Assembly: GCF_014643915.1 (NCBI RefSeq)
Contig: NZ_BMKE01000002.1
Span: forward strand, 132,132-196,131
Origin: Oceanisphaera marina
GTDB taxonomy: Bacteria > Pseudomonadota > Gammaproteobacteria > Enterobacterales > Aeromonadaceae
Direction: 5' to 3'
DNA: 64,000 nucleotides
Shown in pieces: positions 1,908 through 33,041 of the stretch (position 1 is its first letter; the number at the start of each line of letters is the position of its first letter). The position numbers and the translations under genes are program-made. The notes below the pieces were generated by a model that did not search any database, was not told where the DNA came from, and saw nothing but the letters and a program-made list of their open reading frames with translations.

Positions 1908-1941
1908 GTAACACTCCATTGACATGGTTAATGTGGATCCG

Positions 1942-5866: not shown

Positions 5867-5874
5867 AAAAAATG

Positions 5875-5900: not shown

Positions 5901-5913
5901 CCCGTGCTTATTG

Positions 5914-6324: not shown

Positions 6325-6337
6325 TTCAATACTCCTC

Positions 6338-6805
6338 TTAGTCCAGCTGCTGCAGGACATTAATCATTTCAAGTGCGCTGAGGGCGGCTTCTGCGCCCTT
6401 GTTACCCGCCTTGGTGCCAGCACGCTCTATGGCTTGTTCTATGTTTTCGGTGGTCAATACCCCGAAGGCAATCGGCATTTCAAACTCCATCATTACACTG
6501 GCCATGCCTTTGCTGTTTTCATTGGCAACCAGGTCAAAATGATAAGTACCGCCGCGGATAACGCAGCCCAGGGCAACGATGGCGTCATACTTGCCGCTTT
6601 TGGCGAGTTTTTTACACACCAAGGGCATTTCAATGGCGCCAGGCACTTTTACCAGCGTAATGTTATCGTCTTTTACCTGGCCCTGACGCTTGAGCACATC
6701 CAGTGCACCGCCTACCAGGCTGTCGTTGATAAAACTATTGAAGCGAGCAACAACGATCGCTACCTTGGCCTCGGGAGTGGCCATCAGCCCTTCGATTACC
6801 TTCAT
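6338..6805 (-). CDS. ribH: 6,7-dimethyl-8-ribityllumazine synthase
   Basis: 155 aa starting [23 protein letters not shown]… with AGGGA six nt upstream of ATG 6805. The ORF-track start at 6835 is probably spurious. Confidence 0.9.
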
Positions 6806-6952
6806 GGGAATCCCTGTTTGGACAAAAGTGCGCACATTCTAGCACAACCTGAGGGTGACAAAAGTCATTAGATTGCGAACTTAGGTCTCGCGCCTGACGC
6901 TTTACGCCTTACGCCCCCCCCTGAAGAGGTTCGGCAAAAAAAGGGCGGCAGG

Positions 6953-7900: not shown

Positions 7901-8189
7901 ATTATCCTCCTGAGCGGCCGCCATACGTGAAGCGAATGGCGTCAAACTAACCCTAAAAGCTTATGTAACAGACGCCTGCTTTGCCATTTTTATTAACGCC
8001 TTTTCCGCCTTAAAACACCGGTCACCTCACAGTCGCAAGCGGCTGCGCGTGCAAACTGGATGAAATAACATAAAGTGAAGCAATGGCAGAATAAAGCGTC
8101 CACCTCTGCGGTAGAATGCAGACTTCTAGAGGAGCATTTTTCTCTTTTACAGCACAACACTTTTATCACATGCAGGGCGAGGTTTATTT

Positions 8190-19564: not shown

Positions 19565-20818
19565 TTAGGCGTAAACTGGGTGACGACGGCAGATATCCTG
19601 TACCTGCTCTTTCACGTTGGCAATGGCGGCTTCATCGTTGATGTCGTTCAGCACATCACAAATCCAGCCGGCCAGCTGGCGTACTTCGGCTTCTTTAAAG
19701 CCACGACGCGTTACCGCAGGGGTACCAATACGAATGCCGGAAGTCACAAACGGCGAGCGTGGATCGTTAGGCACGGCGTTTTTGTTCACGGTAATGAAAG
19801 CACGACCCAGGGCGGCGTCGGCCTCTTTACCGGTAATGCCTTTGTCGATCAGATCCAGCAGGAACAAGTGGTTGTGAGTACCACCAGACACCACCTTGTA
19901 GCCGCGCTTCTGGAACTCGTCAGCCATGGCCTGGGCGTTTTTCACGACCTGACCCTGGTATTCCTTGAACTCTGGCTCCATGGCTTCTTTGAACGCAACG
20001 GCTTTAGCAGCAATCACGTGCATCAGAGGGCCACCCTGACCACCCGGGAAGACGGCCGAATTCAGCTTCTTCTCCAGATCTTCATTGTTGGAGGCAGACA
20101 GGATCAAACCACCGCGTGGGCCGGCCAGTGTTTTATGGGTAGTGGTGGTCACCACATGAGCGTGCTCGATGGGGCTTGGGTAATGACCCGCCGCAATCAG
20201 GCCGGCCACGTGAGCCATATCCACCATGAACCAGGCACCTATCTTGTCGGCGATTTCACGCATACGCGCCCAATCAACGATACCGGAGAAAGCGGAAAAA
20301 CCACCGATGATCATCTTCGGCTTGTGCTCAACCGCCAAACGCTCCATTTCTTCGTAATCGATCACGCCGGCTTCGTTAATGCCGTAAGGGATGATGTTAT
20401 ACATTTTGCCGGAGAAGTTGGCAGGCGAGCCATGAGTCAGGTGACCACCATGAGCCAGGTTCATGCCCATGACGGTGTCGCCTGGCTTGACCAGCGCCAT
20501 AAATACCGCTGAGTTGGCCTGAGAGCCGGAGTGCGGCTGCACGTTGGCATAGGTTGCACCAAACAGCTCTTTGGCACGGTCAATCGCCAGCTGCTCGGCA
20601 ATATCAACGTACTCACAGCCACCATAGAAACGCTTGCCCGGATAACCTTCGGCATATTTATTGGTCAACTGGGAACCCTGGGCCTGCATGACGCGTGGGC
20701 TGGTGTAGTTTTCGGAAGCAATCAGCTCGATGTGCTCTTCCTGACGTTGAGTTTCATCAACGATGGCCTGCCACAGCTGGGGATCATAATCGGCGATATT
20801 CATGTCACGCTTTAACAT
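19565..20818 (-). CDS. glyA: Serine hydroxymethyltransferase
   Basis: Near-identical to enterobacterial GlyA from [16 protein letters not shown]…. The start is trimmed to 20818. Confidence 0.95.
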
Positions 20819-21091
20819 CCGTCTCTCCTGACTCATGGGGGTGTTCACTGAAGTGCCAAGTTTACCCTTTAGGGGCTGTGCGGCCTAGTCCCGACCCCAT
20901 AGTTAACAACACTTATTTATCTTTATGTTGAAAATTTTACAAAAAGTTTAATATATAGCAACATTTAATTCCCTAGTTATTCACTCACATTCGGGGTAGA
21001 TCTGACAGACAAAGCCGATAGAATAGAAACTTTTAGCTGAGCCAACCTGTATTTACAGAAAATCTGGCGCCCCGACCCCGTTGAGGAGTAT

Positions 21092-21712
21092 ATGCAAGAC
21101 TTCACAGTGACCTCGCAACGCCGAGCCGAACTTTATCACTGGTTTACCGCCCTGTTTTCGGCTCCACTGGTCGAAGATGACATTAACGAGTTTGGCGGCT
21201 ATGACATGCATGCCTTTCTAAGCAGTCTGGCCACCCTGGATCCCTTGCGTGAAGCCACCGAAGCCTTTCGGGTGCAAGCCGATCAAGTGTTGCGGCTAAA
21301 GCAGCCACAAGCCGAGCTGAGCGGGCAATATCAGCAGCTGTTTGGTGAACCTTCTTTACTGGACACCTCGGCTTTGGCTGCGCCGGATGAAGAGTCGCTG
21401 TTTTTGATGAGCATATTATTACATCAACACGGCACTCAACTGCAGGATGACGATCCTCTCAATGCCTGTAATCAGCTGGAAATGATGGCCACCCTGGCGC
21501 TGGCTGCCGCCGCTGCCAATGACGAACAACAGTGTATTGCCCTGCTCGACCAGCAACGGGAGCTGGCCAACCAACTGCTGCTTAACTGGTTACCCGCATT
21601 CGTTGCTGCCTGTCAGCAACAGGACTCCCTGGGCTTTTACGCCGCCGCTGCGCAACTATTACTGGCCATGTTCAGCATGGATATTCATTATCTGAACAAT
21701 GTGGCGCAATAA
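21092..21712 (+). CDS. TorD/DmsD-family redox-enzyme maturation chaperone-like protein (orphan)
   Basis: 206 aa. The N-terminus (AELYHWFTALFSAPLVEDDINEF) and C-terminus (LLLNWLPAFVAACQQQDSLGFYAAAAQLLLAMF) align with E. coli TorD. No molybdoenzyme gene is nearby. Confidence 0.7.
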   Translation: MQDFTVTSQRRAELYHWFTALFSAPLVEDDINEFGGYDMHAFLSSLATLDPLREATEAFRVQADQVLRLKQPQAELSGQYQQLFGEPSLLDTSALAAPDEESLFLMSILLHQHGTQLQDDDPLNACNQLEMMATLALAAAAANDEQQCIALLDQQRELANQLLLNWLPAFVAACQQQDSLGFYAAAAQLLLAMFSMDIHYLNNVAQ

Positions 21713-22065
21713 TGGCCCATCACAAGCACGGCAAAGCCAGCCCATCGCCCCAGACTCAAGAAGAGGCTGAACGCGTGGCCAGGGCCACCCAGAAACCGGG
21801 GCAAACCAAAGAACAGACACGACTGATTGCCCAGGGTATTCAAAAGGGCATAGACGAATATAAAAAGCAGCAAAAGGCCCGCGCTCGGGCCGCCGACAAG
21901 GCGAAAAAACAACGCAGCCGCGAACAGGCCCCCCCCCGGACTGACGAGCAGGAAGAGTGGGCGCCAGCACCCCAAGCGATTGGCACATCCTGGTTACCCT
22001 GGGCGTTGCTGGTATCAAGCTGGATTGGTTTTGCCGTTTACTGGTGGCAACAACAACCCGGATAA
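21712..22065 (+). CDS. DUF2956-like small protein with C-terminal TM anchor
   Basis: 117 aa, Lys/Gln-rich (…KPGQTKEQTRLIAQGIQKGIDEYKKQQ…) with one C-terminal TM helix. Its start overlaps the torD-like stop. Confidence 0.6.
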   Translation: MAHHKHGKASPSPQTQEEAERVARATQKPGQTKEQTRLIAQGIQKGIDEYKKQQKARARAADKAKKQRSREQAPPRTDEQEEWAPAPQAIGTSWLPWALLVSSWIGFAVYWWQQQPG

Positions 22066-22074
22066 CCCACAGGA

Positions 22075-23049
22075 GTGCACATGGCCCTTAGCTTACCCGA
22101 ACACTGCCTTACTGCCGAAGGGGTTGAACGACGTCTTGGCGTTGAGCTTGAGCTAAACGGCCTGCCCCTGCCTCGGTTGGCCGGGCTGGTGGCCGAACAA
22201 CTCGGCGGCACTCTGCAACCGCAGTCGGAATACGAAATAGACATAGAAACACCTCTGGGTACCTTTCGCGCCGAGCTGGACTTCGATTATCTGAAACGGC
22301 TGGCGCGAGAACAGCTCAAGCAACCGCCCGGAGAACTCGAATTGGCTGCCACCGAGCTGTTGGGCACCCTGGCCTTTCAACTGGTACCACTCGAACTGAT
22401 CAGCCCGCCACTGCCCTTATCGCAGCTGGTCTGCCTAACACCCTTGTTTGAACGTCTGAGGCTGGCCGGCGCCAAAGGGACCCGCCATGCCCTGCACTAC
22501 GCTTTTGGTTTGCACCTTAATCCCGAGCTGCCAGATACCGATAGTCATACCCTGCTGCGCTACTTCAAGGCTTATTTATGCCTGCACGACTGGCTGGAAG
22601 AGCACGAAGACATAGTGGCTGCGCGCAAGGTGTCGCCCTATATTCGCGCCTTTGGCAAAGAGTACAGCCGCCGGGTTATCGACGTGCATTACTGGCCTGC
22701 CTTGCCCGCCTTTAGTGCCGATTATCTATTGGCCAATCCCAGCCGTAACCGGTCACTCGACTTGCTGCCCTTGTTGGCCTGGCACGATGAGGCGCAAGTA
22801 CAAAGAGCGGTACAGGACGACAAGGTCAACAAACGCCCCACCCTGCACTATCGTCTGCCCAACTCGGATATCGATAACCCCAACTGGTCCCTGGATCATG
22901 CCTGGCGGGGCTGGCTGCAGGTAGAGTCCCTGGCCAACGATGAACACCGGCTGGCCCAGGTATGCCAGCACTACGCCGCGCATCTTGACCAGCTCACGCC
23001 GGACTTCTTAAACCCGTGGAAATACAAGGTCATCCAATGGCTCCGCTAA
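22075..23049 (+). CDS. Putative amidoligase (Amidoligase_2 / glutamine-synthetase-like fold)
   Basis: 324 aa. The similarity is to the uncharacterised amidoligase enzyme family, which is typically paired with C26 gamma-glutamyl hydrolases. Confidence 0.6.
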   Translation: MHMALSLPEHCLTAEGVERRLGVELELNGLPLPRLAGLVAEQLGGTLQPQSEYEIDIETPLGTFRAELDFDYLKRLAREQLKQPPGELELAATELLGTLAFQLVPLELISPPLPLSQLVCLTPLFERLRLAGAKGTRHALHYAFGLHLNPELPDTDSHTLLRYFKAYLCLHDWLEEHEDIVAARKVSPYIRAFGKEYSRRVIDVHYWPALPAFSADYLLANPSRNRSLDLLPLLAWHDEAQVQRAVQDDKVNKRPTLHYRLPNSDIDNPNWSLDHAWRGWLQVESLANDEHRLAQVCQHYAAHLDQLTPDFLNPWKYKVIQWLR

Positions 23050-23726
23050 TTGGCGTCACCGGACCCGACAGCAGACTGCCCTGGGCCTGGTGGGCAACCC
23101 GTCTGGCCATTCGCCTGGCGGGTGGGCGGGCGCTGCGCTTGACCCCCAACAGCTTTCGACCCCACAAGAGAGACAAGCTGCAGGGGCTGATTATTGGCGG
23201 CGGCGACGACATAGATGCCGCCTTATACGGCGAAGACACCGGCCGCGCCCCGGCCGATCCCAGGCGGGATGCCTTTGAAATAGAGCTGATTGAGCACGCT
23301 CTGCAAACCCAACTGCCGTTATTGGGTATTTGCCGCGGTGCCCAGCTGATCAACGTGGTACTCGGGGGATCCTTGCATGCCGATATTCGCCCCCAACGCC
23401 AACACACTTCCAACCGTCGCACCCTGCTACCACGCAAAACCGCCCTGGGCACAGGCGAGGGGCGGTTACATCATATTATGGGCCAGTCACGCTGGCGTAT
23501 TAACAGCCTGCATCATCAGGCGGTCAAACGACTGGGCGCTCAGCTTGAGGTGACTGCACGCGATCTGGACGGCTTTGTACAGGCCATCGAATATCGGGGC
23601 GATCACGCCATTCTGGGAGTACAGTGGCATCCGGAATACCTGCCTTATCTGGCTGGTCAGCGGGAAATTTTTCGCCATTTAGTGGCGCTGGCCAAAGCCA
23701 CCTCTCCCGAGCGACTCTATCCCTGA
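23037..23726 (+). CDS. Class-I glutamine amidotransferase-like / peptidase C26 gamma-glutamyl hydrolase (PuuD-like)
   Basis: The catalytic Cys is in GICRGAQLIN, with the His in the LGVQWHPE context, matching PuuD (GICRGLQ…GVQWHPE). Start chosen at MAPLIGVTG, overlapping the amidoligase by 13 nt. Confidence 0.8.
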   Translation: MAPLIGVTGPDSRLPWAWWATRLAIRLAGGRALRLTPNSFRPHKRDKLQGLIIGGGDDIDAALYGEDTGRAPADPRRDAFEIELIEHALQTQLPLLGICRGAQLINVVLGGSLHADIRPQRQHTSNRRTLLPRKTALGTGEGRLHHIMGQSRWRINSLHHQAVKRLGAQLEVTARDLDGFVQAIEYRGDHAILGVQWHPEYLPYLAGQREIFRHLVALAKATSPERLYP

Positions 23727-24157
23727 TGCTGGATTACCTCATTGTTTTTACCAGCAGCCTGCTGGCGGCCACCATAGCGCCCTTTTACTCGGAAGTGGTG
23801 CTGGCTGCCGTGCTCACCCGCCAGCCCGACGCCGCCCTGTTGTTGTGGTTGCTGGCAAGCATCGGCAATACCCTGGGCGCCATCGTCAACTGGTGGCTCG
23901 GCAAATACCTGCTGCATTATCGCCACAAGCGCTGGTTCCCCATCAAGGAAAAACAATTAGTCAAAGCCCAGGCCGGCTTTCAGCGCTTTGGCGTCTGGAG
24001 CTTGTTGTTGTCCTGGGCGCCCATCGGCGGCGATGCCCTGACCTTTATTGCCGGCATCATGAAGGTACAGCTGCTGCCTTTTACGCTGTTGGTGTTTATT
24101 GGTAAGGCAGCCCGCTACGCCGTGGTGATCTGGCTTGCGGATACGCTGCTGTTGTAA
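23726..24157 (+). CDS. yqaA: YqaA-family (DedA-related) inner-membrane protein
   Basis: Aligns with E. coli YqaA along its length (…NSEVVL…LLSW.P..GD…GKA.RY…). Start at MLDYLIV. Confidence 0.75.
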   Translation: MLDYLIVFTSSLLAATIAPFYSEVVLAAVLTRQPDAALLLWLLASIGNTLGAIVNWWLGKYLLHYRHKRWFPIKEKQLVKAQAGFQRFGVWSLLLSWAPIGGDALTFIAGIMKVQLLPFTLLVFIGKAARYAVVIWLADTLLL

Positions 24158-24193
24158 AAAGGGCCCTGTCGTTGCCGACAAGGCCCTTGGGGA
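24155..24193 (-). terminator. Terminator downstream of telA (a hairpin shared with convergent yqaA)
   Basis: agggccctgtcg-ttgc-cgacaaggccctt stem with TTTTT on the minus strand. Confidence 0.55.
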
Positions 24194-25276
24194 TTAAAAG
24201 GTCTGGCGTAAAGCCTGCTTGAGTTCCTCTTCGGCGCGAGCAATTTCCAGCTCGGCCGCGGCCCGTTGCCGACGCCCGTCACGATAATGCTCCAGGGTGC
24301 TGTTGAGGGTATCTATGGTGATGCGGTTCACTTCTTTCAGGGAGTCCAGATCCAGAATGCCGCGCTGGTAATTACCGGCAATCTCCTGCTCCAGCTGCTG
24401 CAGCTTCTGGGCATTACGTACATATTGCTGATTGGTATAGTCTTTGACGGCTCGCGTCACCTGCAAGGCCTTTTCTTTTTCATAGTTGGAAATTGCAATC
24501 AAGAATTGCCGTTTCCATAACGGAATGGTGTTGTGACAGATATCCTGAATATCTTCCATCAACATCTTGTTGCCTTCTTGGGACAGCCGGATTTGCGGTG
24601 CGGTTTGCAGTGCCGCCAGGCGCACCGCACTCAGATTGGCCAGACGTTTTTCCAGGCGCCCCAGCGCCTGTTGCAAATCACGCAATGCCTGTGCATCTAC
24701 CGGATCGCCGCTTGCCTCGGCCTTGCTCTGCAAGGTGGGCACCTGCTGTTCAAGCAAGGTGTTCAGCTTAAGCTTGCCGGCGGCAATATACACATCCAGT
24801 TGCTGCAGTAGATGCAAATTTTCCTGATACAAGCCATCGAGGCGCTCAATATCCGTGGTCAGTTGGTGCTCATGGGCACGCAACTGCCCCTCCAGGGCAT
24901 CGAGACGATCCTTTACCGAATCAAACCCCTTGATAAAGCTGCCAAAGGTCTGAAACAGTTCGCCAATAAGCGGCAGGCGACTGAGAAAGCTGTCGGGGCG
25001 AATCCGGTCCAACTCACAGCCTTTCATCTGGCCTATCATGGCATCCAGAATGTCTCCGGCTTCGCCCGTATCTCGACTGCGAATATTATCCAGCACCCGA
25101 TCTGAAAAGGCGGTAATGCGCTCCATCGCCTCCTTGCCAAAGGTGATGGTCGCCACTGAATCGAGCGGATCAAGACTGGCGGCAATGCTCTGAACTGCCT
25201 GTTGTTCGTCTGTGTGCAGATCCCCTGGCCGCGTTTCGGCGAGAGCCTGTGTTTGCAAAACGGGTTCATTGGGCAT
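24194..25276 (-). CDS. telA: Toxic anion resistance protein, TelA/KlaA family
   Basis: 360 aa with full-length TelA-family similarity. Start set at the second ATG (MPNEP…), which has AAGGAG six nt upstream. It overlaps the PLD gene stop. Confidence 0.8.
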   Translation of the reverse strand: MPNEPVLQTQALAETRPGDLHTDEQQAVQSIAASLDPLDSVATITFGKEAMERITAFSDRVLDNIRSRDTGEAGDILDAMIGQMKGCELDRIRPDSFLSRLPLIGELFQTFGSFIKGFDSVKDRLDALEGQLRAHEHQLTTDIERLDGLYQENLHLLQQLDVYIAAGKLKLNTLLEQQVPTLQSKAEASGDPVDAQALRDLQQALGRLEKRLANLSAVRLAALQTAPQIRLSQEGNKMLMEDIQDICHNTIPLWKRQFLIAISNYEKEKALQVTRAVKDYTNQQYVRNAQKLQQLEQEIAGNYQRGILDLDSLKEVNRITIDTLNSTLEHYRDGRRQRAAAELEIARAEEELKQALRQTF

Positions 25277-25976
25277 GAAATACTCCTTCATGGTGTAGTT
25301 GCCACAAGCGGTTAAACTCCCCCACGTAGGCTGACACCAGCGGCTCGTTGTCGGTCAGCAACAGGTTTTCCTGGTTGTACTGGCTGGCGCTGCGCGTCCA
25401 GTTAAAGCTGCCATTGAGCAGCCAGCGTCGGTCGAACAGCGCGAACTTGTGGTGCATGTGATAGGGGCTGGTATCGAGCAAGACCTCGACGCCCTTGCGA
25501 CTAAGATAATCCACGTCACTGCCCCTGTCGTTGGCCTTGTCCTGATCGCTCAGCACCCGCACCGCCACCCCCTTGTTGTGGGCCGCCAGCACCGCCTGGG
25601 TAAGGCGATCGTCGGACAAGGTAAATACGCAAATATCCAGTTGCGTTCGGGTCTGCTCAATCAAGCCGATAATGGCCTCTAGACAATCGCGCCCCGGTGA
25701 AAACCAGGCCCCGGATGTGACTGGCTGTACCTGCAGGCGGGCACGATCCAGCGTCTGGATTACCCGCTCCAGCCAGATAACCACCTCGGTGTTTAACTGG
25801 CCGTCTCTGGAGCGTTCGCGCGCCAATTCAAAGGCTTTGTTACGGGCAAAGGACAATAACTCCGGCTGAGAGACCAGACCATCAAACAGCAGCCCCAGAT
25901 CTCGCCGCTCTTCCTTGGAAAGACGGCCATCGGCCAGGGTCAGTCGCAGCTGCATTTCCAGCTCTTGTTGTGTCAT
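25266..25976 (-). CDS. Phospholipase D-family (HKD) protein with an N-terminal TerB-like domain
   Basis: HKD motif HMHHKFALFD…GSFNWT. The N-terminus LTLADGRLSKEERRDLGLLFDGL resembles the TerB ADG motif. Its ATG overlaps the stop of the giant gene (ATGA). Confidence 0.75.
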   Translation of the reverse strand: MTQQELEMQLRLTLADGRLSKEERRDLGLLFDGLVSQPELLSFARNKAFELARERSRDGQLNTEVVIWLERVIQTLDRARLQVQPVTSGAWFSPGRDCLEAIIGLIEQTRTQLDICVFTLSDDRLTQAVLAAHNKGVAVRVLSDQDKANDRGSDVDYLSRKGVEVLLDTSPYHMHHKFALFDRRWLLNGSFNWTRSASQYNQENLLLTDNEPLVSAYVGEFNRLWQLHHEGVFHAQ

Positions 25977-28900
25977 TCGATAGACTCCTTATCCGCCGCG
26001 CCGACGAGGGCGGCTTTATCATCAGTGCCCTGCATCATGGACCAGGCCAGGGTGCGCAGGTGGCTGCCAATGCCCTTCATTTCATCGGCGATCACACCCA
26101 CCTTGTCGACCGGCTGATGCTGTTGGCGATAACGGGCGCAAATGGCGGCCCAGCGGTCGGCCTGCTCGGGTGTCAGAGTCCCGCGCAGCTCGGCCAGCTT
26201 GAGCAGGTTTTCTTCGGTGCCCTGGGTCAGTGTTTGCGCCTCGCCCAGATAGTGATCGTCAAGCAGGCGTTGCAGCTCTTGCTCTGTCATGACCGCCATC
26301 ACTTTTTCCGCCAGCTTGTTCATGTTGCGATAAGAGCCCTGCAACTTGAACGGCGGCTCGGTGCGGTAATCGTCGGCCGAGGCGGCGGACGCGATATATT
26401 GCTGGTTAACCTTGAGCACCACCTGCTGCACTTGCAACAACCGGCTGAGAACGCCGGTGATCTCGCGAGCTTCATGGGCGGAATAGTTGTATTCCAGCTC
26501 ACTGAGTGCAATGTCTTCGCCGCGCGCCATGGCCACCAGCAAGTAAAGGTCCTTGAGATTGCGACTGGCCAGCGGCGCCAGCACCGGGTTGGACGAGAGG
26601 GCATTTTCCACATAAGACAACTCAAAGGCCGCTCGCTGATCAGACAGCATGTCACCCAGGTTATAAATATCGGCGCGGTTGGCCAACATGTCGGGCAGGC
26701 GAAACACTTCTCCCGACTCGGTATAGGGATTGCCCGCCATCACCAGCGCAAAGCGCTTGCCTTTCATGTCATAGGTTTTGGGTTGGCCGCGCCAGACGCC
26801 ATCGATGCGCCGCGTGCCATCACTCAGGGAGATAAATTTCTGCAAAAACTCGGGGTGCGTATGCTGAATATCATCCAGATACAAGAGCACGTTAGCGCCC
26901 ATTTCCAGCCCCAGATTAAGCTTTTCTATCTCGCGGGCAGCGGTGGCATTAGGCGCATCCGCCGGATCCAGCGACACCACCTCGTGTCCCAGCGACGGGC
27001 AGTTGATTTTCATAAACACCATGCCCAGCTTGCCGGCTATGTATTCCACCAGTGTGGTTTTGCCGTAACCGGGAGGCGATATCAACATCAACAGACCCAT
27101 TTGATCGGTTCGACGAGCCGTTCCCATGGCCCCCAGTTGCTTGGCAAAGTTGTCTCCGATCAAGCCCAGATAAGACTCACTGATCAGTTTGTTGCGTACG
27201 AAGCCACTGAGCGGACGCGCCTGAAACTGATCGGGGCGCAACTCGTCTCTGGCTTGCTCGAGCAAAGTCGAGCGCCTCGCCTGAAAGGCATCAAAGGCCG
27301 GTAATACCTGTTGTTGGTGATATTCACCCCGCGTTAAAAAGTCATCCAGGCTGAGTATCAGCTCTCCCCCATCCAACCTCGGATGGTCGGCCAGTAATCC
27401 TTGCACGCGTACCGCCAACGAGAAATCGAGCGGGCGCAACACCAGCTCGCTGTGCTCTTTAAGGCAGGCCAGCGCCGCCGCTTCAACCACGAAGCTGTCG
27501 GGTCTTTGCTGCTGTTCACAAAATGCCTGCAGCCACAGTTGATGCTCGGCACAGCTCTCGACACTGATTGAACTATCACCCTGCCAACCTAAGCTGCGGC
27601 GAAAGGACAGATAATCCGAGGCCAGTTCATCCGCATCCCGGCTGATCAGGATATCGCCATCGATGGCGAGTTGGCGCAACAGATAGTCGGCGGTTTGCCG
27701 GGTATCTATCGCCTCGGCAACGAGCCCGAGTTCCTGTATCGACAACGCCAACTGCTGCTGTAATTGCTCATACAAAGATGACTGCCCAAGATGTTGTTGT
27801 AATTGCAGGGCGTCTTGACCACGGCGACGCCAGTGCTCGCGCTGGATCTTAGGCTGGGCAGATAACCACAAGAGCCCGGTCGCGCGGGCGCGCTGGCCAA
27901 AGCGTAATAATCCCGCCTCTCTATACAAGGGCCAGAGCGCCGTAAGCAGGCACACTGCGTCTTGATCGTGAATGCCCTTTACATAACCATCGCGATAACG
28001 GCTGGCAGCAAAACGCTGTACTAATCCGGTCAATGTGCCTTCTTTGAGCGCCGCTTCCAGCACCTCGGGCGAGAGGTCTTCTTGTCGGCGCTCCACTTGC
28101 TGCAACAGGCAGTAAGCCAGATATTCAGAGCGGCTAAGCTGCGGGCTTTCCGAGGGTAGCGTCAGCTCACCAAACCGGCTCAGGGTTTCCAGCTCGGCAT
28201 CCACCACCGGCTCGTAAAAGTCGGTGCCGGTAAGATGCAGCGCCAGTTGCTGCTGCCTTTGCACCAGGGTCAGGGCCGGCTCTTGAGTGTTGACCGCAAA
28301 CCGATGTCGACCCAGCTTGAGCACGCTGCCCCCCTGCTCAAAGATATCCTGATTATCTCGCAGGGTACTCATTGCCTGTTCTTTCAGGGTCTTTACGCGC
28401 CCGCGTACCGCTTCGGCACGCACGCTGCCGCCCAGTTGCTCCATTTGAGTGGCAAGCTGCGCCAGCTTGTGCACCATGGCATCGGCGGCAAAATAACCGT
28501 TAAGCTCCGCCAACTGGTCGAAACGTCGCACTCGCTTGTCGATGCTGGCCAGCGTAATCTCTGCCGCCTGCGCCAGGTTGTCGAGCCGCTTTTGTCGCGC
28601 CGCAAGCAACTGTTGTTTGCGCGATTCCAGACTGGACTGTATCTCGTCACGTTTGTGATAGATGTCAGCCAGAAACTGATCGAATTCGGCAAAACGGCTT
28701 TCCAGTTTTTCAATCATGCCCATCAGTCGCGCCTGCTGTTCGTCGCAGCTTTCTGGACTGTCGGCCTGCCCCAGTGCCGACGTGACCGCCTGGGTCAACA
28801 ACTTGAGCTGAGCCTCAAACTCGGCCTCTGCCTCGCCTTGACGCAGTTGCTGATGACGCTGGCGCAATCGAGCCAGACAGGCATTGAGCCGCGCCACCAC

Positions 28901-30898
28901 TTCAGTAGTCAGATCGAGAATACGGGTCGCCTGGGTCGCATCCTGAGTTTCAATTTCGGCCACTTCTTCGTTGATCAGATCCAAAGACTGATGGATTTCA
29001 TCCGCCTGCTCACGCAGTCGATCCAGCTCGACTGTGGTAGTACATTCGGGCAGAGCCCGTTCCAGCTCATCAATGACCTTGAGAAAAGGCTGATACGCCT
29101 GCTCTTTCTGTAACAACCCCAGCAGTCGCTGATTAAGCTGCTCACGGCCGTGTTCGAGCTGTTGCTCCAGCTCCAACAGACGTGCTTCATCCACATAACG
29201 GCCACCCTTGAGACTGATCACCCGCCCCAGCTGGGTTTTGATTCCGGCCAATAATTGAATAAGCTGCGCGGCATCGTCATCCGGGCTCAGTTTGATGCGG
29301 CCCAGCAACGTCTGCTGCTCCTGCGCCAACTCGGCAATGGCGCTATCGGTTTGCTGGCGCAACAGCTGTACCTTGGCAAACTCATCGACGATTTGTTCGG
29401 CGGTGGTGGTGATTTCACGCACCTGAGCACCCAACTTGCCTGCTGCATCGTCATCGAGCCAATGATAGTTATCGAGCGTGCGTCCACAAAAGGTCACCAG
29501 AATTTCATACAGCGAACGGGTCACCTCCTGGGTACGACAATAGGAGACGATACTGTTGATTTCGGCGATACCACGCACCAGTTCGGCATTGCCGATATTG
29601 GCGAAAAAAGGATGTTGATGCTGGTGTTGGTCAGCCTCGTAAATTTCGAGGGTCATGAACGGCGTTTGCCAGATGCGCAGCGGGTGCAGTTTGCTGGCCA
29701 CACTGTTATCAGTGAGGCGAAACATCAACATGCGGCCATCGTTATAAAGGCTGTAGCCGTGATTGTAGTTAGGTGGACTGACGCTTTTCTCGATCAGGTT
29801 GTAGCTATAGTGCAGGTAGGCGCCTTGAACGGGATCAAAAAAGATAAACAGCACATCTTCGCCATTGGGAGCCTGTTCCCGATGGAAATAGCGCATCTGC
29901 CGCCAGTCTTCGTCAAATAGCCGAGCGTCTCCATCGGCCAGCAGATAGCCGTTGGCAAATAACAGGCCGTGATCTTCTGGTAGTAACTTGCAGCTCGCCC
30001 CGATGGCATCGGCGCGCACGACTTTTTCGGTCAGTCGGTTGTACGCCAGATAACGGTAGTCTTTCTCACGGTTAGGCCGCACCTTGAGCAGAATAAACCC
30101 CGCCGCCTCGGCATAATGGACTTCGGTATCGGCCAGCGTCTGGTGGACGTCTTCCACCGGCTCGTTGAATATTTCCAGACCGTCGGGGGTGTTGTTTTCA
30201 ATACGAACACTGAGGCTGCCTGCCAGACAGTCGACAAACAGCTGATCGAGGATCATCAGGTGTGGTCTGTCTCCCTGCACCTGATGATCTCGCCCTGCCA
30301 ACTGCCATTGCACATCCTGCTGGGGCGCTTCATCCAGCTGGGCTTGACCCGGATCGTCCAGATATTCGACGCGACCGTCTGCGTGCAGCTGCCAGCGATA
30401 GACCTTGCGATCTTCCAGCCGCGAGCCAATTTGAAACACCAGATACAACCAGCTGCCGCGCCGGCTGATTTGGGTCAAACGCGTATCTTTGTAGTAGGTG
30501 AGCAGTTCATTAAAGGAGTGGCGAAAACGGGCATCGTCGAGAAAAGTATCCGCCAGTGGCAGCTCTTCTACTCGAAACTGACCGTCATGTTCGACCAGTC
30601 GATATAATCCCAGTACTTCTTCCACGGACGGGACGGCTTTAAGCCCCACTTGTACACGATAGCCAAACAGCAAGAGGCCGTTGATCTGCGCTATGTCTAT
30701 GGGCAGGCAACGATGTTCGGTATGTACATTGACCCTGCCCAGCAGCTCCTGGGCTCGGGCACCAAAGGCCTGTTGGCGAGCCTGATTAAAACTGCCGGCA
30801 TCTTCGGCCAGCGCCTTGCCTTGCTCGGCCAGGCGGGCGCGCAGTATCTCGTAGGATCCTTCGCCGGCCACCGCCTCATTAAGTTGATGTTGTTCCAT
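25973..30898 (-). CDS. Giant (1641 aa) uncharacterised protein with extensive coiled-coil regions and one P-loop AAA+ ATPase module near residue 1320
   Basis: A single uninterrupted ORF. Walker A is LISPPGYGKTTL, Walker B is VLLYLDDIQH, and sensor-1 is ALVMAGNP. Residues about 480-900 are Gln/Leu/Glu/Arg-rich coiled coil. The N-terminal 450 aa show no similarity I recognise. Confidence 0.75.
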   Translation of the reverse strand: MEQHQLNEAVAGEGSYEILRARLAEQGKALAEDAGSFNQARQQAFGARAQELLGRVNVHTEHRCLPIDIAQINGLLLFGYRVQVGLKAVPSVEEVLGLYRLVEHDGQFRVEELPLADTFLDDARFRHSFNELLTYYKDTRLTQISRRGSWLYLVFQIGSRLEDRKVYRWQLHADGRVEYLDDPGQAQLDEAPQQDVQWQLAGRDHQVQGDRPHLMILDQLFVDCLAGSLSVRIENNTPDGLEIFNEPVEDVHQTLADTEVHYAEAAGFILLKVRPNREKDYRYLAYNRLTEKVVRADAIGASCKLLPEDHGLLFANGYLLADGDARLFDEDWRQMRYFHREQAPNGEDVLFIFFDPVQGAYLHYSYNLIEKSVSPPNYNHGYSLYNDGRMLMFRLTDNSVASKLHPLRIWQTPFMTLEIYEADQHQHQHPFFANIGNAELVRGIAEINSIVSYCRTQEVTRSLYEILVTFCGRTLDNYHWLDDDAAGKLGAQVREITTTAEQIVDEFAKVQLLRQQTDSAIAELAQEQQTLLGRIKLSPDDDAAQLIQLLAGIKTQLGRVISLKGGRYVDEARLLELEQQLEHGREQLNQRLLGLLQKEQAYQPFLKVIDELERALPECTTTVELDRLREQADEIHQSLDLINEEVAEIETQDATQATRILDLTTEVVARLNACLARLRQRHQQLRQGEAEAEFEAQLKLLTQAVTSALGQADSPESCDEQQARLMGMIEKLESRFAEFDQFLADIYHKRDEIQSSLESRKQQLLAARQKRLDNLAQAAEITLASIDKRVRRFDQLAELNGYFAADAMVHKLAQLATQMEQLGGSVRAEAVRGRVKTLKEQAMSTLRDNQDIFEQGGSVLKLGRHRFAVNTQEPALTLVQRQQQLALHLTGTDFYEPVVDAELETLSRFGELTLPSESPQLSRSEYLAYCLLQQVERRQEDLSPEVLEAALKEGTLTGLVQRFAASRYRDGYVKGIHDQDAVCLLTALWPLYREAGLLRFGQRARATGLLWLSAQPKIQREHWRRRGQDALQLQQHLGQSSLYEQLQQQLALSIQELGLVAEAIDTRQTADYLLRQLAIDGDILISRDADELASDYLSFRRSLGWQGDSSISVESCAEHQLWLQAFCEQQQRPDSFVVEAAALACLKEHSELVLRPLDFSLAVRVQGLLADHPRLDGGELILSLDDFLTRGEYHQQQVLPAFDAFQARRSTLLEQARDELRPDQFQARPLSGFVRNKLISESYLGLIGDNFAKQLGAMGTARRTDQMGLLMLISPPGYGKTTLVEYIAGKLGMVFMKINCPSLGHEVVSLDPADAPNATAAREIEKLNLGLEMGANVLLYLDDIQHTHPEFLQKFISLSDGTRRIDGVWRGQPKTYDMKGKRFALVMAGNPYTESGEVFRLPDMLANRADIYNLGDMLSDQRAAFELSYVENALSSNPVLAPLASRNLKDLYLLVAMARGEDIALSELEYNYSAHEAREITGVLSRLLQVQQVVLKVNQQYIASAASADDYRTEPPFKLQGSYRNMNKLAEKVMAVMTEQELQRLLDDHYLGEAQTLTQGTEENLLKLAELRGTLTPEQADRWAAICARYRQQHQPVDKVGVIADEMKGIGSHLRTLAWSMMQGTDDKAALVGAADKESIE

Positions 30899-30959: not shown

Positions 30960-33041
30960 TTACTCCTGTTTGGCGTCGCCTGTTACCAGCTGCTGCAGTT
31001 TATCCTGCAGGTTGCCGTTGCCATTGAGTTTGGTCAGCAGGTTGGCCAGCGCCAAATTGCTCACCGTGCCTGTGTCTATCTTGGAATTTTCCAGTACCGC
31101 GCGAATATCGTCGGACAGGCTGCGGCCTTGTTCAGTGTATTCACGCACCAGTGGCTTGAGCACTTCGCTGCTGCCAATGCGGCTGTCGAGTTTGGCGCTG
31201 CTCATCACGGTGCGACGCAGCTCTTCCATACCCTGACCGCCAAACAGCTTGATGTCCGCGTTGGACAGTGCCGTTGCCAGTGCCTTGGCACTGTCGACCG
31301 ACATCGACTTTTGGGCGTCGATACGGGCAATTTCCAGCTCTTTCTGCTGCTGCAGTTCCAGCACCCATTTGTCGTGCTCACGGGTTTGATCGTCAAATTT
31401 CTTCGCCGCTTCAAAACGTGCCGTCTGGGTTTCGGCTTCGGCCAGCCCTTTGGCGCGCAGCGCCTGGGCCTCGGCATCACCTTTGGCTCTGTGGCTTTCG
31501 GCTTCAGCCAGACCAAGCGAAGAAATAGCAGCGGCTTCGGCGTCGCCGGTTTCACGAATCGCCATGGCACGCTCGCGATCCACACCGACCTGCGCCAGCC
31601 CTTCGGCACTGATTTCTTCACGCAGGGCATGGGCCATGCGCTCTTTGGCTTCGGCACGTTTGGTTTCCTGAATCAGTTCGGCCTCGGCTTCGCGGGTCTT
31701 CACATTCAGATCGTTTTCCGCTTCGCGGGTACGGATCTTGATTTGAGCTTCGCTTTCCAGGGTTTGCTTTTCCATCCATTCCTGAGCAGCCTGCTTCTCG
31801 GTGCGGGCCATGACCACGGAGCGAATGCCCTCGGCTTCGGCTGCCGCCTCGGCCTCTACCAGGCGCACTTTTTTCTCGCGCTCGACAAGCTGGAAGGCGC
31901 GCAAATTGGCGGTTTCTTCTTCTTCACGTGCTATCTTGCGCTCGATTTCAACTCGCTGAGATTGCGTTTCCACCACCGCCTTGCGGGCTTCTTCCAGCGC
32001 AGCCTCTTTCTCCATGGTCTGCTGGGCAATTTCCCGCTCGGTACGTACCCGTTCGGTTTCCTTGGCGCGATTGACTTCTTCCTGCTGAATAGCCACCTGA
32101 CGCTCGTTGCTGCTGCGGGTTAAATCCACTTCCATCTGCAACGATTCCTGGCGCTTGGCCACGTTTTCTTCGGTCTGCAGACGCGCCAGTTCTTTTTGAC
32201 TGACATATTCCTGACGCTTCTCTTCGGTCAGGGCTTCTTCTTGAGCACGAATGATCTCGATTTCGCGCTTTACGCGAGCCAGGTTTTCCTGCTCCTGCTT
32301 ATCAAGCTGAGCGCGGTTGCTTTCGGCCTCTACGTTCTTTTGCTTGATTAAGGTTTGCTCGTCCTGACGAATGGCGTTGGTTTCAATATTTTTACTGGAG
32401 GTAATAGAAGCAATCTTGCGAATACCTTCCACATCCAATACGTTTTGCGGATCGTGGGCGTCAAAACAGGTCTGATCTACGCGGTCAATAACCACATCGT
32501 AGATCTTGAACCCATCCATCTCGGAGCCAATCACTTCCACCACAGCATCCCGAAATTCACGGCGGTTGGTGAGCAGCTCTTCAAATTCAAACTGCTTAAC
32601 GGCGGTTTTCAGGGCCTCTGAGAATTTGGGCTGAAAATGTTCTTTCAGCCGATCCAGCTGAGACGCACCAATGGTGGTGAACAGCTTGGCCACGCGAATA
32701 ATATCTTCTTCTTCGTGGTTAACACCGATATAGAAGTCTACTTTCAGGTCGGCACGAATATTATCCCGGCAATGCAAACCTTCCGATTCCTCACCCAACT
32801 GGTCTTTACGACCACTGCGGATCACCGAAATTTTCTTGCGCGTGATATCCATAAACTCACCGCGATTAACGACAGGCCACACAAAGGCACCGGTAAGCGT
32901 AGCGCGCGTCCGTCTGCTGCCGTTAACAATAAGTGCTTCACCTTCATGGCGTATTTTGTAATAGCGGCTGGTCAGAAAAACAAGTATCAAGACTATCAGG
33001 CCGGCAAGCCCACCGACAAAATAGTACAAAGGGGTAAACAT
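30960..33041 (-). CDS. Flotillin / SPFH (band-7) family protein, YqiK-like but extended (693 aa)
   Basis: N-terminal TM helix, then an SPFH domain, then a Glu/Ala/Arg/Lys-rich coiled coil of about 320 residues with repetitive EAE/AEA heptads. Confidence 0.8.
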   Translation of the reverse strand: MFTPLYYFVGGLAGLIVLILVFLTSRYYKIRHEGEALIVNGSRRTRATLTGAFVWPVVNRGEFMDITRKKISVIRSGRKDQLGEESEGLHCRDNIRADLKVDFYIGVNHEEEDIIRVAKLFTTIGASQLDRLKEHFQPKFSEALKTAVKQFEFEELLTNRREFRDAVVEVIGSEMDGFKIYDVVIDRVDQTCFDAHDPQNVLDVEGIRKIASITSSKNIETNAIRQDEQTLIKQKNVEAESNRAQLDKQEQENLARVKREIEIIRAQEEALTEEKRQEYVSQKELARLQTEENVAKRQESLQMEVDLTRSSNERQVAIQQEEVNRAKETERVRTEREIAQQTMEKEAALEEARKAVVETQSQRVEIERKIAREEEETANLRAFQLVEREKKVRLVEAEAAAEAEGIRSVVMARTEKQAAQEWMEKQTLESEAQIKIRTREAENDLNVKTREAEAELIQETKRAEAKERMAHALREEISAEGLAQVGVDRERAMAIRETGDAEAAAISSLGLAEAESHRAKGDAEAQALRAKGLAEAETQTARFEAAKKFDDQTREHDKWVLELQQQKELEIARIDAQKSMSVDSAKALATALSNADIKLFGGQGMEELRRTVMSSAKLDSRIGSSEVLKPLVREYTEQGRSLSDDIRAVLENSKIDTGTVSNLALANLLTKLNGNGNLQDKLQQLVTGDAKQE

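What the first reader, a model, noticed from the sequence alone, without database searches (positions are those of the whole stretch)
21092..24157. torD-like / DUF2956 / amidoligase / C26 gamma-glutamyl hydrolase / yqaA operon
Five co-directional genes with overlapping or abutting boundaries (21712, 23037-23049, 23726). An uncharacterised amidoligase (glutamine-synthetase-like fold) paired with a PuuD-like C26 hydrolase recalls PuuA/PuuD gamma-glutamylation cycles. This suggests ATP-dependent gamma-glutamyl (or similar amide) tagging and removal on an unknown amine or peptide substrate. An orphan TorD-family chaperone and a lysine-rich, membrane-anchored DUF2956 protein are in the same operon, and one of them might be the substrate or a partner. 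The function is unknown.
Basis: inference. Interest (0 to 1): 0.55.

Follow-up and report, generated by a model that had tools for sequence, protein, structure and literature searches.

The report
Amidoligase–C26 hydrolase–YqaA membrane module
The five tightly packed genes are real, but only three of them (an ATP-dependent amide ligase, a cysteine hydrolase and a small membrane protein) travel together across bacteria. That ligase–hydrolase pairing was already predicted in 2009 and its substrate is still unknown.

Summary
The window is Oceanisphaera marina.

- **Conserved core.** In 80 related loci, the Amidoligase_2 gene is followed by a C26 gene in 74 and by a YqaA (VTT-domain) gene in 57. 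This holds across many gammaproteobacterial families with different flanking genes, and in 3 of 6 alphaproteobacterial plasmids.
- **Gene fusions.** Natural Amidoligase–C26 and VTT–Amidoligase fusion proteins exist.
- **Bystanders.** The TorD-like and DUF2956 genes accompany the core only in Oceanisphaera, Zobellella and Oceanimonas. They persist in O. avium and O. profunda, which lack the amidoligase–C26 pair. DUF2956 sits in unrelated contexts in Aeromonas, Vibrio and Aliikangiella.

**Best reading:** a cytoplasmic ligase and hydrolase that make and break a gamma-glutamyl-type amide on a small molecule handled by an adjacent membrane transporter.

**Main rival:** a glutamine-dependent amidotransferase.

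The ligase–hydrolase neighbourhood is, to my recollection, already noted by Iyer et al. (2009) and in Pfam. I found no paper describing the VTT link. This is a new member of a known, uncharacterised kind, of moderate interest.

The parts
20849..21091 (.). AT-rich intergenic region between divergent glyA and the TorD-like gene. It is the presumed promoter region for the five-gene transcript.
   Evidence: Sequence; GC drops to 0.48-0.52. The consensus promoter scan found no + strand site, so the promoter is inferred, not shown. No Rfam element is present.
21092..21712 (+). TorD-family-like chaperone gene (206 aa). It is a lineage-specific neighbour and not part of the conserved module.
   Evidence: - Family matches are.
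- Only 43 homologues were found. The named ones are all Oceanisphaera, Zobellella or Oceanimonas, and most are 59% identical or more.
- It is present without the amidoligase–C26 pair in L086 and L087.
21712..22065 (+). DUF2956 gene (117 aa): a basic, Gln/Glu-rich N-terminal part and a Trp-rich hydrophobic C-terminus. It is a lineage-specific neighbour.
   Evidence: - PF11169, 135 bits.
- Contexts in Aeromonas, Vibrio and Aliikangiella are unrelated.
22081..23049 (+). Amidoligase_2 gene (322 aa; alternative GTG start at 22075). A glutamine-synthetase-like carboxylate-amine ligase and the core of the module.
   Evidence: - PF12224, 179 bits.
- 100% identical to an O. marina protein.
- AF2 model pLDDT 90.
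- Conserved in at least 97% of the 81 aligned sequences (window plus 80 loci): E22, E24, D67, E105, N147, E149, R182, R222, N223, R224, D227, R252, H256, R258.
23037..23726 (+). Peptidase C26 / class-I GATase-fold cysteine hydrolase gene (229 aa). It overlaps the amidoligase gene by 13 nt and is part of the core module.
   Evidence: - PF07722, 157 bits.
- Best solved relatives are Lin1909 (3fij), PuuD (6vtv) and a P. aeruginosa glutamine amidotransferase-like protein (7d4r).
- Cys99, His198 and Glu200 are invariant in 75 of 75 sequences.
- It lies downstream of the amidoligase gene in 74 of 80 loci.
23726..24157 (+). YqaA-type VTT/DedA-superfamily membrane protein gene (143 aa). Its start overlaps the C26 stop codon (TGATG). 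It is the third member of the module.
   Evidence: - PF09335, 49.7 bits.
- Hydrophobic segments are listed.
- It follows C26 on the same strand in 57 of 80 loci.
- VTT–Amidoligase fusion proteins exist.
24159..24188 (.). GC-rich hairpin between the convergent yqaA and telA genes. It marks the end of the operon.
   Evidence: -21.8 kcal/mol, z -2.9. The T-run lies on the minus strand, so it looks like the telA terminator. Termination of the + strand transcript here is inferred.

Best explanation
The conserved functional unit is three genes, not five: Amidoligase_2, a C26 cysteine hydrolase and a VTT-domain membrane protein (YqaA).

In O. marina this trio sits directly downstream of an unrelated, lineage-specific TorD-like/DUF2956 gene pair. 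It is probably co-transcribed with that pair.

**Proposed mechanism (inferred).**
1. The cytoplasmic amidoligase uses ATP to activate a carboxylate as an acyl-phosphate. By analogy with GS, GCL and PuuA this is most likely the gamma-carboxyl of glutamate.
2. It joins the activated carboxylate to an amine, giving a gamma-glutamyl-type amide.
3. The C26 enzyme, through its Cys-His-Glu triad, hydrolyses the same kind of bond.

The two enzymes act as a physically coupled make-and-break pair on a small molecule. That molecule is moved across, or presented at, the inner membrane by the adjacent transporter. The transporter is YqaA here; elsewhere it is an RND, AI-2E or MFS transporter.

Plausible roles are temporary conjugation of an amine for detoxification or export, or control of the level of an exported amide metabolite.

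**Shown:** gene order, family membership, fold, invariant catalytic residues, conserved linkage, fusions.
**Inferred:** the chemistry, the substrate, complex formation and the physiological role.
For: **Linkage**
- Amidoligase followed by C26 on the same strand in 74 of 80 genome loci, with YqaA next in 57 of 80. Median gaps are 24 and 17 nt.
- Flanking genes differ between families: Aeromonadaceae, Marinobacterium, Hahella, Halieaceae, Spongiibacteraceae, Methylobacter, Salinisphaera and Verrucomicrobia MAGs.
- The pair recurs at 29-35% identity on plasmids of Rhodobacteraceae SC52, D. shibae and Qingshengfaniella.

**Fusions**
- Amidoligase–C26 fusions: P0374, P0380 and P0387. P0437, another member of P0387's cluster, is seen on 88 contigs.
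- VTT–Amidoligase fusions in Deltaproteobacteria and Sandaracinus MAGs, each followed by a C26 gene; the overlap is 4 nt in L095, L098 and L099.

**Transporter association**
- 68 of 80 loci have an adjacent co-directional transporter: YqaA in 57, RND in 12, AI-2E in 10. Qingshengfaniella has an MFS transporter.

**Enzyme features**
- GS-like fold.
- Invariant acidic, His and Arg residues in the amidoligase, and an invariant C26 triad.
- The C26 protein is closer to free-standing gamma-glutamyl hydrolases than to amidotransferase GATases. Pfam C26 scores 157 bits against 59.5 for GATase. NCBIfam ranks PuuD (8e-25) and gamma-glutamyl-CDP-amidate hydrolase (9e-18) above GuaA (3e-12).

**Established knowledge (from memory)**
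- GS-like ligases next to GATase-like gamma-glutamyl-amide hydrolases recur in amine metabolism: PuuA/PuuD, IpuC/IpuF, TdnQ/TdnT.
Against: - No oxidase, aminotransferase or dehydrogenase is conserved with the pair. A Puu-type catabolic route is therefore incomplete, and ligase plus hydrolase alone would be a futile cycle unless regulated or spatially separated.
- Synthetase–GATase fusions are also the hallmark of glutamine-dependent amidotransferases, which is rival 1.
- The carboxylate and amine substrates are unknown. The amidoligase has no sequence-level similarity to any solved enzyme.
- 6 of 80 loci lack C26 and 12 of 80 lack any adjacent transporter.
- Amidoligase–C26 fusions occur without a nearby VTT gene.
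Confidence: 0.5

Rival explanations
1. Glutamine-dependent amidotransferase. The C26 protein is the glutaminase subunit that feeds ammonia to the GS-like amidoligase. The amidoligase then amidates an ATP-activated carboxylate (R-COOH to R-CONH2), possibly on a lipid-linked or envelope precursor handled by the VTT/DedA-type protein. This would work like MurT/GatD or CTP synthase.
For: - Translational coupling: a 13-nt overlap here and 4-nt overlaps in other lineages.
- Natural Amidoligase(N)–GATase(C) fusions are the standard architecture of amidotransferases.
- The intact Cys-His-Glu triad is equally compatible with glutaminase activity.
- Some DedA/VTT proteins flip undecaprenyl phosphate. 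There are weak NCBIfam UptA hits and a DedA review (PMC10127716).
- Lipid genes (DAGK/YegS, CDP-OH_P_transf) lie near the VTT–Amidoligase fusion.
- A paper citing Iyer et al. 2009 reports a proposed cell-wall-modifying role for phage amidoligase plus GATase (PMC10580990).
Against: - The C26 protein groups with stand-alone gamma-glutamyl-X hydrolases rather than with ammonia-channelling GATases.
- From memory, no GS-superfamily ligase is known to take ammonia from a class-I GATase.
- Pfam text (from memory) says firmicute family members pair instead with an AIG2 gamma-glutamyl cyclotransferase, which cannot supply ammonia.
- Six loci have the amidoligase without C26.
- RND, AI-2E and MFS neighbours point to a soluble transported molecule rather than a lipid-linked one.
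Confidence: 0.25
2. One reading: the TorD-like chaperone and/or the DUF2956 protein is the substrate or a dedicated partner of the amidoligase–C26 pair.
For: The genes abut or overlap and are probably co-transcribed in O. marina. The same five-gene order is seen in the 14 related Oceanisphaera, Zobellella and Oceanimonas loci.
Against: - The linkage is confined to one clade, where glyA and nrdR synteny is also conserved. It is therefore not independent evidence.
- 66 of 80 loci have no TorD-like or DUF2956 gene within 6 kb.
- O. avium keeps TorD-like/DUF2956 with none of the trio. O. profunda keeps TorD-like/DUF2956/YqaA without the amidoligase–C26 pair.
- DUF2956 in Aeromonas, Vibrio and Aliikangiella has unrelated neighbours.
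- In Oceanisphaera sp. W20 the trio is 86-91% identical to the window but TorD-like/DUF2956 only 71-76%. This suggests separate histories.
Confidence: 0.05
3. Peptide or protein tagging system. The amidoligase attaches an amino acid or peptide to a protein side chain, as PafA attaches Pup, and the C26 protein is the matching isopeptidase.
Against: - GS, GCL and YbdK-like small-molecule ligases score higher than PafA/Dop.
- No conserved small tag or target gene accompanies the pair across the 80 loci.
- Transporter neighbours fit a small molecule better.
Confidence: 0.07
4. Puu-like catabolic entry and exit steps for an amine used as a nitrogen or carbon source, with the intermediate oxidation steps encoded elsewhere in the genome.
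For: - Closest characterised relatives of the C26 protein are PuuD and, by my recollection of entry 7d4r, SpuA.
- The Rhodobacteraceae SC52 plasmid has an aldehyde dehydrogenase and an amino-acid ABC binding protein directly upstream of the pair.
Against: - No oxidase, aminotransferase or dehydrogenase is conserved next to the pair in the 80 loci.
- Fusion of the first and last enzymes of a pathway is unusual.
- The neighbouring RND and AI-2E transporters are typically exporters.
Confidence: 0.12

Closest known systems
Amidoligase_2 (PF12224) with a glutamine-amidotransferase-like thiol peptidase: the conserved neighbourhood predicted by Iyer, Abhiman, Burroughs and Aravind, Mol Biosyst 2009
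   Same: The same two families in the same order in proteobacteria. The window pair scores far above both Pfam thresholds. The linkage is reproduced here in 74 of 80 loci.
   Different: - The 2009 paper could not be read here; the description is from memory of the Pfam text and from citing papers.
- The regular third partner (a VTT/YqaA or other transporter) and the two kinds of fusion protein were not found in any paper in the searchable library.
- No member of this family appears to have been characterised biochemically.
PuuA/PuuD (E. coli putrescine gamma-glutamylation pathway) and analogous IpuC/IpuF and TdnQ/TdnT pairs
   Same: A GS-fold ATP-dependent ligase paired with a class-I GATase-fold Cys-His-Glu hydrolase acting on gamma-glutamyl amides. 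PuuD is among the best solved relatives of the C26 protein.
   Different: - The amidoligase is 322 aa and shows no detectable sequence similarity to any solved protein, GS and PuuA-type enzymes included; the resemblance is at fold level only.
- The C26 protein is well below the PuuD equivalog cut-off (87.7 against 266 bits).
- No oxidase or dehydrogenase steps accompany the pair.
- The pair is fused in some lineages and is associated with transporters.
Glutathionylspermidine synthetase/amidase (Gss)
   Same: A ligase and a cysteine amidase for the same amide bond are physically coupled, in one polypeptide in Gss. This gives reversible conjugation of a small amine.
   Different: The folds are unrelated: Gss combines an ATP-grasp synthetase with a CHAP amidase. 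The analogy is one of logic only (from memory).
MurT/GatD lipid II amidotransferase
   Same: A two-gene ATP-dependent ligase plus a GATase-fold partner with tight coupling. A possible link to lipid-carrier biology comes through the DedA/VTT protein.
   Different: MurT is a Mur-ligase fold and GatD is a CobB/CobQ-type GATase (from memory). Here the ligase is GS-like and the partner is C26-type. No peptidoglycan genes are adjacent.
E. coli YqaA / DedA superfamily (UptA-type undecaprenyl-phosphate transporters, TMEM41B/VMP1 scramblases)
   Same: A VTT domain (PF09335) in a small multi-pass membrane protein.
   Different: The protein is far below the UptA equivalog cut-offs (30 against 300 bits). 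The function of YqaA-type proteins is unknown. The VTT domains fused to amidoligases are not detectably similar to the window YqaA by BLASTP.

Membership tests
Amidoligase_2 (PF12224), GS-like carboxylate-amine ligase superfamily | Profile match above the curated threshold | tested here: met
   179.3 bits against a cut-off of 22, covering profile positions 2-244 of 245.
Amidoligase_2 (PF12224), GS-like carboxylate-amine ligase superfamily | Glutamine-synthetase / glutamate-cysteine-ligase catalytic fold | tested here: met
Amidoligase_2 (PF12224), GS-like carboxylate-amine ligase superfamily | Conserved metal- and phosphate-binding residues on the core strands (ExE strand, H/N-x-E strand, R-x-x-x-H-x-R strand) | tested here: inconclusive
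   - E22, E24, E105, N147, E149, R252, H256 and R258 are conserved in at least 97% of the 81 aligned sequences, window plus 80 loci.
- They lie on predicted strands 18-26, 144-149 and 256-259.
- One-to-one equivalence with the GS ligands was not checked by superposition.
Amidoligase_2 (PF12224), GS-like carboxylate-amine ligase superfamily | ATP-dependent amide-bond formation | not testable with these tools
   This needs an enzyme assay.
Amidoligase_2 with GATase-like thiol peptidase neighbourhood (Iyer et al. 2009) | Adjacent co-directional class-I GATase-fold gene in proteobacteria | tested here: met
   13-nt overlap in the window. 74 of 80 loci. 3 of 6 alphaproteobacterial plasmid contexts. 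Fusion proteins.
Peptidase C26 / class-I GATase fold | Profile match above the threshold and a Cys-His-Glu catalytic triad | tested here: met
   - PF07722, 156.8 bits against a cut-off of 20.5.
- GICRG and WHPE align with Lin1909 and PuuD.
- C99, H198 and E200 are invariant in 75 of 75 sequences.
PuuD (gamma-glutamyl-GABA hydrolase) equivalog | Score at or above the NCBIfam NF008471 cut-off | tested here: not met
   87.7 bits against 266. It is a relative of PuuD, not an orthologue.
Puu-type gamma-glutamylation catabolic pathway | Oxidase or aminotransferase plus aldehyde dehydrogenase steps encoded together with the ligase and hydrolase | tested here: not met
   None among the five genes. None is conserved in the 80 loci. 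An aldehyde dehydrogenase is adjacent only on one Rhodobacteraceae plasmid.
Puu-type gamma-glutamylation catabolic pathway | Ligase is a full-length GS-type (PuuA-like) enzyme | tested here: not met
   322 aa. No sequence match to any solved protein even at E 10, so none to GS or PuuA-type enzymes. The similarity is at fold level only.
TorD/DmsD/NarJ redox-enzyme maturation chaperones | Profile match | tested here: inconclusive
   Pfam Nitrate_red_del scores 22.9 against 22.2, only just above threshold. NCBIfam TorD gives E 1.2e-21 over the full length, but its 77.7 bits are below the 132 cut-off.
TorD/DmsD/NarJ redox-enzyme maturation chaperones | Encoded next to its cognate Tat-exported molybdoenzyme | tested here: not met
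   None of the ORFs of about 590 aa or longer in the 64-kb window matches a molybdopterin oxidoreductase family; one of them, 30960-33041, matches no Pfam family. The rest of the genome was not searched.
DUF2956 (PF11169) | Profile match above the threshold | tested here: met
   135 bits against 25, covering profile positions 1-101 of 102.
DedA/VTT superfamily (YqaA type) | VTT domain match and a multi-pass membrane protein | tested here: met
   PF09335, 49.7 bits against 33.9. Hydrophobic segments around residues 1-55 and 104-138.
UptA undecaprenyl-phosphate transporter equivalog | Score at or above the NCBIfam cut-off | tested here: not met
   30.3 bits against 300 and 20.3 against 250.
Glutamine-dependent amidotransferase (synthetase plus GATase) | Physical coupling of the GATase with the synthetase (fusion or obligate complex) | tested here: met
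   Amidoligase–C26 fusion proteins occur in several lineages; one sequence is seen on 88 contigs. This feature is shared with bifunctional ligase/amidase enzymes, so it does not discriminate.
Glutamine-dependent amidotransferase (synthetase plus GATase) | Glutaminase activity coupled to the synthetase through an ammonia channel | not testable with these tools
   This needs a complex structure and an enzyme assay.

The most novel reading that the evidence does not exclude
The Amidoligase_2–C26–VTT trio may be an unrecognised membrane-coupled conjugation system.

One version is conjugate-and-export: a bacterial analogue of phase-II detoxification, or of maturation of an exported amide metabolite. 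The other is ATP-dependent amidation or gamma-glutamylation of a lipid head group or of a polyprenyl-linked precursor.

In either case the VTT-domain protein would be the dedicated membrane partner. That would give the first enzymatic partner and substrate clue for YqaA-type DedA-superfamily proteins.
Probability: 0.2. Interest if true: 0.6.

Novelty: new member of a known kind. Interest (0 to 1): 0.35.

Why it matters
Amidoligase_2 is a modest-sized family, with about 970 clusters at 50% identity among 1.84 billion representatives. I found no solved structure related by sequence and no biochemical characterisation of any member.

- **Narrowing the system.** Only the amidoligase, the C26 hydrolase and a membrane transporter co-evolve, and they fuse. 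This reduces the experimental system from five genes to two enzymes plus a transporter.
- **Natural controls.** O. avium and O. profunda lack the pair.
- **Tractable hosts.** Dinoroseobacter, Marinobacterium, Hahella and Methylobacter carry the pair.
- **A clue for YqaA-type proteins.** The repeated link with VTT-domain proteins could give a functional hint for the YqaA branch of the DedA superfamily, whose substrates are unknown.

Otherwise the locus is an ordinary chromosomal instance of a neighbourhood predicted in 2009.

Tried and rejected
- **PDB sequence search.** The amidoligase profile gave no hit at E 1 or below; at E 10 or below there was only noise. Only fold comparison was informative.
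- **Phage genomes.** tblastn against 50,697 phage records found no match. The phage Amidoligase_2 genes mentioned in the literature are too distant to compare.
- **Riboswitches and leaders.** Rfam found nothing relevant in window 20500-24500 or in 11 loci. The one TPP riboswitch, in L013, is on the opposite strand.
- **Promoter and terminator scan.** Uninformative for the + strand.
- **Iyer et al. 2009.** The paper (PMC3268129) is not held, so its content is cited from memory and through citing papers. The Klebsiella CfmP "amidoligase-like" paper concerns an ATP-grasp enzyme and is irrelevant.
- **AF2 of a VTT–Amidoligase fusion.** A six-sequence alignment gave pLDDT 45, which is unusable for domain arrangement.
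- **BLASTP of YqaA against the fused VTT domains.** No significant similarity. The two are linked only at Pfam-domain level.
- **PADLOC on the downstream island.** Only weak DrmC/DpdK-like hits for the PLD protein.
- **Crude gene calling.** Longest-ORF calling in GC-rich loci mis-called many genes. Counts therefore rest on the tblastn anchors.
- **Folate or pterin polyglutamylation.** I considered this idea because glyA is nearby here and folB sits next to the pair in D. shibae. I set it aside because the link appears in only two lineages.

Full report
**Observation**

The window comes from Oceanisphaera marina: the amidoligase is 100% identical to GCM10011502_03910. Between the divergent glyA gene (19565-20848, minus strand) and a convergent telA gene (24194-25291, minus strand) lie five + strand genes:

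| Gene | Coordinates |
|---|---|
| TorD-like | 21092-21712 |
| DUF2956 | 21712-22065 |
| Amidoligase_2 | 22081-23049 (alternative GTG at 22075) |
| Peptidase C26/GATase | 23037-23726 |
| YqaA-type VTT-domain membrane protein | 23726-24157 |

A stable hairpin (24159-24188, -21.8 kcal/mol, z -2.9) follows the last stop codon.

There are two small caveats. DUF2956 is only moderately lysine-rich, with 11 K in 117 residues. The TorD match is marginal: it is just above the Pfam cut-off and below the NCBIfam equivalog cut-off.

**Which genes belong together**

I built a 20-sequence alignment of amidoligase homologues and used it to scan one genome per species. This gave 593 confirmed matches, of which the best 80 loci were kept. 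tblastn anchors gave these counts:

- C26 lies directly downstream on the same strand in 74 of 80 loci (median gap 24 nt).
- YqaA follows in 57 of 80 loci (median gap 17 nt).

The loci span Aeromonadaceae, Marinobacterium, Neptuniibacter, Hahella, Halieaceae, Spongiibacteraceae, Ketobacter, Methylobacter, Cellvibrionaceae, Salinisphaera, Nevskiales and two Verrucomicrobia MAGs. Flanking genes differ between these groups.

TorD-like and DUF2956 hits appear in only 14 loci. All are Oceanisphaera, Zobellella, Oceanimonas or a closely related unnamed MAG, and all 14 also keep glyA (nrdR in 12 of them). That linkage is therefore inherited synteny rather than independent evidence.

Three further results separate the two groups of genes:

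- **Natural variants.** O. avium has glyA–TorD-like–DUF2956–acs with none of the trio. O. profunda has glyA–TorD-like–DUF2956–YqaA–acs, with YqaA 83% identical to the window protein but no amidoligase or C26.
- **DUF2956 elsewhere.** In Aeromonas, Vibrio fluvialis and Aliikangiella it has unrelated neighbours.
- **TorD-like distribution.** Only 43 homologues were found. The named ones are all from the same three genera, and most are 59% identical or more.

None of the ORFs of about 590 aa or longer in the 64-kb window matches a molybdoenzyme family; one of them, 30960-33041, has no Pfam match at all.

**Deeper linkage and fusions**

On alphaproteobacterial plasmids, at 29-35% identity, the amidoligase is again followed by a C26 gene in three cases:

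- Rhodobacteraceae SC52, with an aldehyde dehydrogenase and an amino-acid binding protein upstream.
- D. shibae pDSHI02, with folB upstream.
- Qingshengfaniella, with an MFS transporter upstream.

It is solitary in Azospirillum and in mobile-element contexts in Rhodovastum and Microvirga.

A full HMMER search of 1.84 billion representatives found only 966 family members. Among the best 150 there are two kinds of fusion protein:

- **Amidoligase_2–C26:** P0374 (567 aa), P0380 (620 aa) and P0387 (594 aa).
- **VTT_dom–Amidoligase_2:** P0299 (570 aa) and P0408 (548 aa).

These are not assembly artefacts. P0437, a 594-aa member of the same cluster as P0387, occurs on 88 contigs. The VTT fusions occur in several Deltaproteobacteria and Sandaracinus assemblies. 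Each is followed by a separate C26 gene, overlapping it by 4 nt in L095, L098 and L099.

In one lineage the fusion lies near a DAGK/YegS-type lipid kinase gene and a CDP-alcohol phosphatidyltransferase gene.

In Halieaceae the pair lies directly downstream of an RND efflux operon. In Spongiibacteraceae an AI-2E-family transporter gene abuts it upstream. Overall, 68 of 80 loci have an adjacent co-directional transporter gene.

**Are the enzymes active, and of what kind**

The C26 protein aligns with Lin1909 (3fij), PuuD (6vtv) and a P. aeruginosa glutamine amidotransferase-like protein (7d4r). Its nucleophile Cys lies in GICRG and its His and Glu in WHPE. Cys99, His198 and Glu200 are invariant in all 75 sequences.

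The protein scores much higher on Pfam C26 (157 bits) than on generic GATase (59.5 bits). On NCBIfam it ranks PuuD and gamma-glutamyl-CDP-amidate hydrolase above the amidotransferase subunits, all below their equivalog cut-offs.

Residues on its core strands and a cluster of Arg, Asn and Asp residues are conserved in at least 97% of the 81 aligned sequences, window plus 80 loci.

**Mechanism**

The best-supported reading is a coupled ligase and hydrolase that make and break a gamma-glutamyl-type amide on a small molecule. That molecule is moved or presented by the adjacent membrane protein.

The chemistry is inferred from three things:

- the GS-like fold;
- the closeness of the C26 protein to free-standing gamma-glutamyl hydrolases;
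- the recurring pairing, in established amine pathways, of GS-like ligases with GATase-like gamma-glutamyl-amide hydrolases (PuuA/PuuD, IpuC/IpuF, TdnQ/TdnT; from memory).

It differs from Puu because no oxidising steps accompany it, the ligase is a different and much smaller family, and the two enzymes can be fused. In logic it is closer to glutathionylspermidine synthetase/amidase.

The main rival is a glutamine-dependent amidotransferase in which C26 supplies ammonia. Fusions and translational coupling fit it equally well, and the DedA link would suit a lipid-linked substrate, as with MurT/GatD. The affinities of the C26 protein, the variety of exporter-type neighbours, and the reported AIG2 partner in firmicutes (from memory of the Pfam text) argue against it, though not decisively.

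**Comparison with what is known**

To my recollection, the Pfam entry for PF12224 and Iyer et al. (Mol Biosyst 2009) already describe Amidoligase_2 genes next to GATase-like thiol peptidase genes in proteobacteria. The paper is not held here. Citing papers confirm the general proposal for phage amidoligase plus GATase.

No paper in the searchable library links amidoligases with DedA or VTT proteins, and I found no biochemical characterisation. The window locus is therefore a new member of a known, computationally predicted kind. The five-gene arrangement is a lineage-specific juxtaposition.

**Verdict**

- Interest is moderate to low (0.35). The chemistry and substrate remain open and the module is now well delimited, but the central idea is not new.

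Noticed in passing
window 24158-~34100: An insertion of about 10 kb lies directly after the yqaA stop codon. It carries TelA (24194-25291, minus strand), a PLD/NucT/DrmC-like protein (25266-25976, minus), a 1641-aa DUF3686 + AAA ATPase (25973-30898, minus) and a 693-aa ORF with no Pfam match (30960-33041, minus). In the other Oceanisphaera loci acs follows yqaA directly. The L001 yqaA–acs spacer aligns to the window just before acs. TelA and PLD recur in Oceanimonas baumannii L012 at 84-91% identity, higher than the neighbouring operon genes, so the block looks mobile. It may be a stress or defence island.
   Followed up: partly
L010 (Oceanisphaera sp. W20_SRM_FM3) 4985-8077: Identities to the window are discordant: TorD-like 71% and DUF2956 76%, but amidoligase 90%, C26 91% and YqaA 86%. 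This suggests a recombination breakpoint between DUF2956 and the amidoligase gene, meaning the trio is exchanged as a unit.
   Followed up: no
L087 (O. profunda) 5349-5602; L086 (O. avium) 5370-5638: Within the genus there are natural presence/absence variants. O. profunda keeps yqaA (83% identical) but lacks the amidoligase–C26 pair, with a 254-bp spacer in its place. O. avium lacks all three genes. These strains are ready-made controls for experiments.
   Followed up: partly
L094 5001-7450, L095 3956-6405, L098/L099 5001-7441: VTT_dom–Amidoligase_2 fusion genes in Deltaproteobacteria and Sandaracinus MAGs are followed by a C26 gene. In L094 and L095 they lie next to a DAGK/YegS-type lipid kinase, an MscS-type channel, a LysR regulator and a CDP-alcohol phosphatidyltransferase. 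This hints at a lipid connection.
   Followed up: partly
L090 (D. shibae pDSHI02) 1114-5701: The amidoligase–C26 pair sits directly after folB (dihydroneopterin aldolase), near a homocysteine S-methyltransferase gene and a formate/nitrite transporter gene. In the window the operon lies next to glyA. This one-carbon/folate flavour is seen in only two lineages and is unexplained.
   Followed up: no
protein P0001 and homologues: UniRef names several of these amidoligase homologues "Alpha-L-fucosidase", including P0001, P0006, P0010, P0016 and P0040. Nothing in the Pfam match or the predicted fold supports that name. It is probably a propagated annotation error.
   Followed up: no
L040, L050, L060, L065, L069 (Halieaceae), about 2775-7330: In a Halieaceae sub-clade the amidoligase follows an MFP–AcrB-type RND efflux operon and is followed by a DUF3144 gene, but the C26 gene is missing. 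Sister Haliea loci have RND–amidoligase–C26–DUF3144. This looks like a natural loss of the hydrolase.
   Followed up: partly
L013 5674-5802 (minus strand): A TPP riboswitch (71 bits) lies upstream of the divergent gene next to the Marinobacterium arenosum amidoligase locus. It is on the opposite strand and is not associated with the amidoligase.
   Followed up: no
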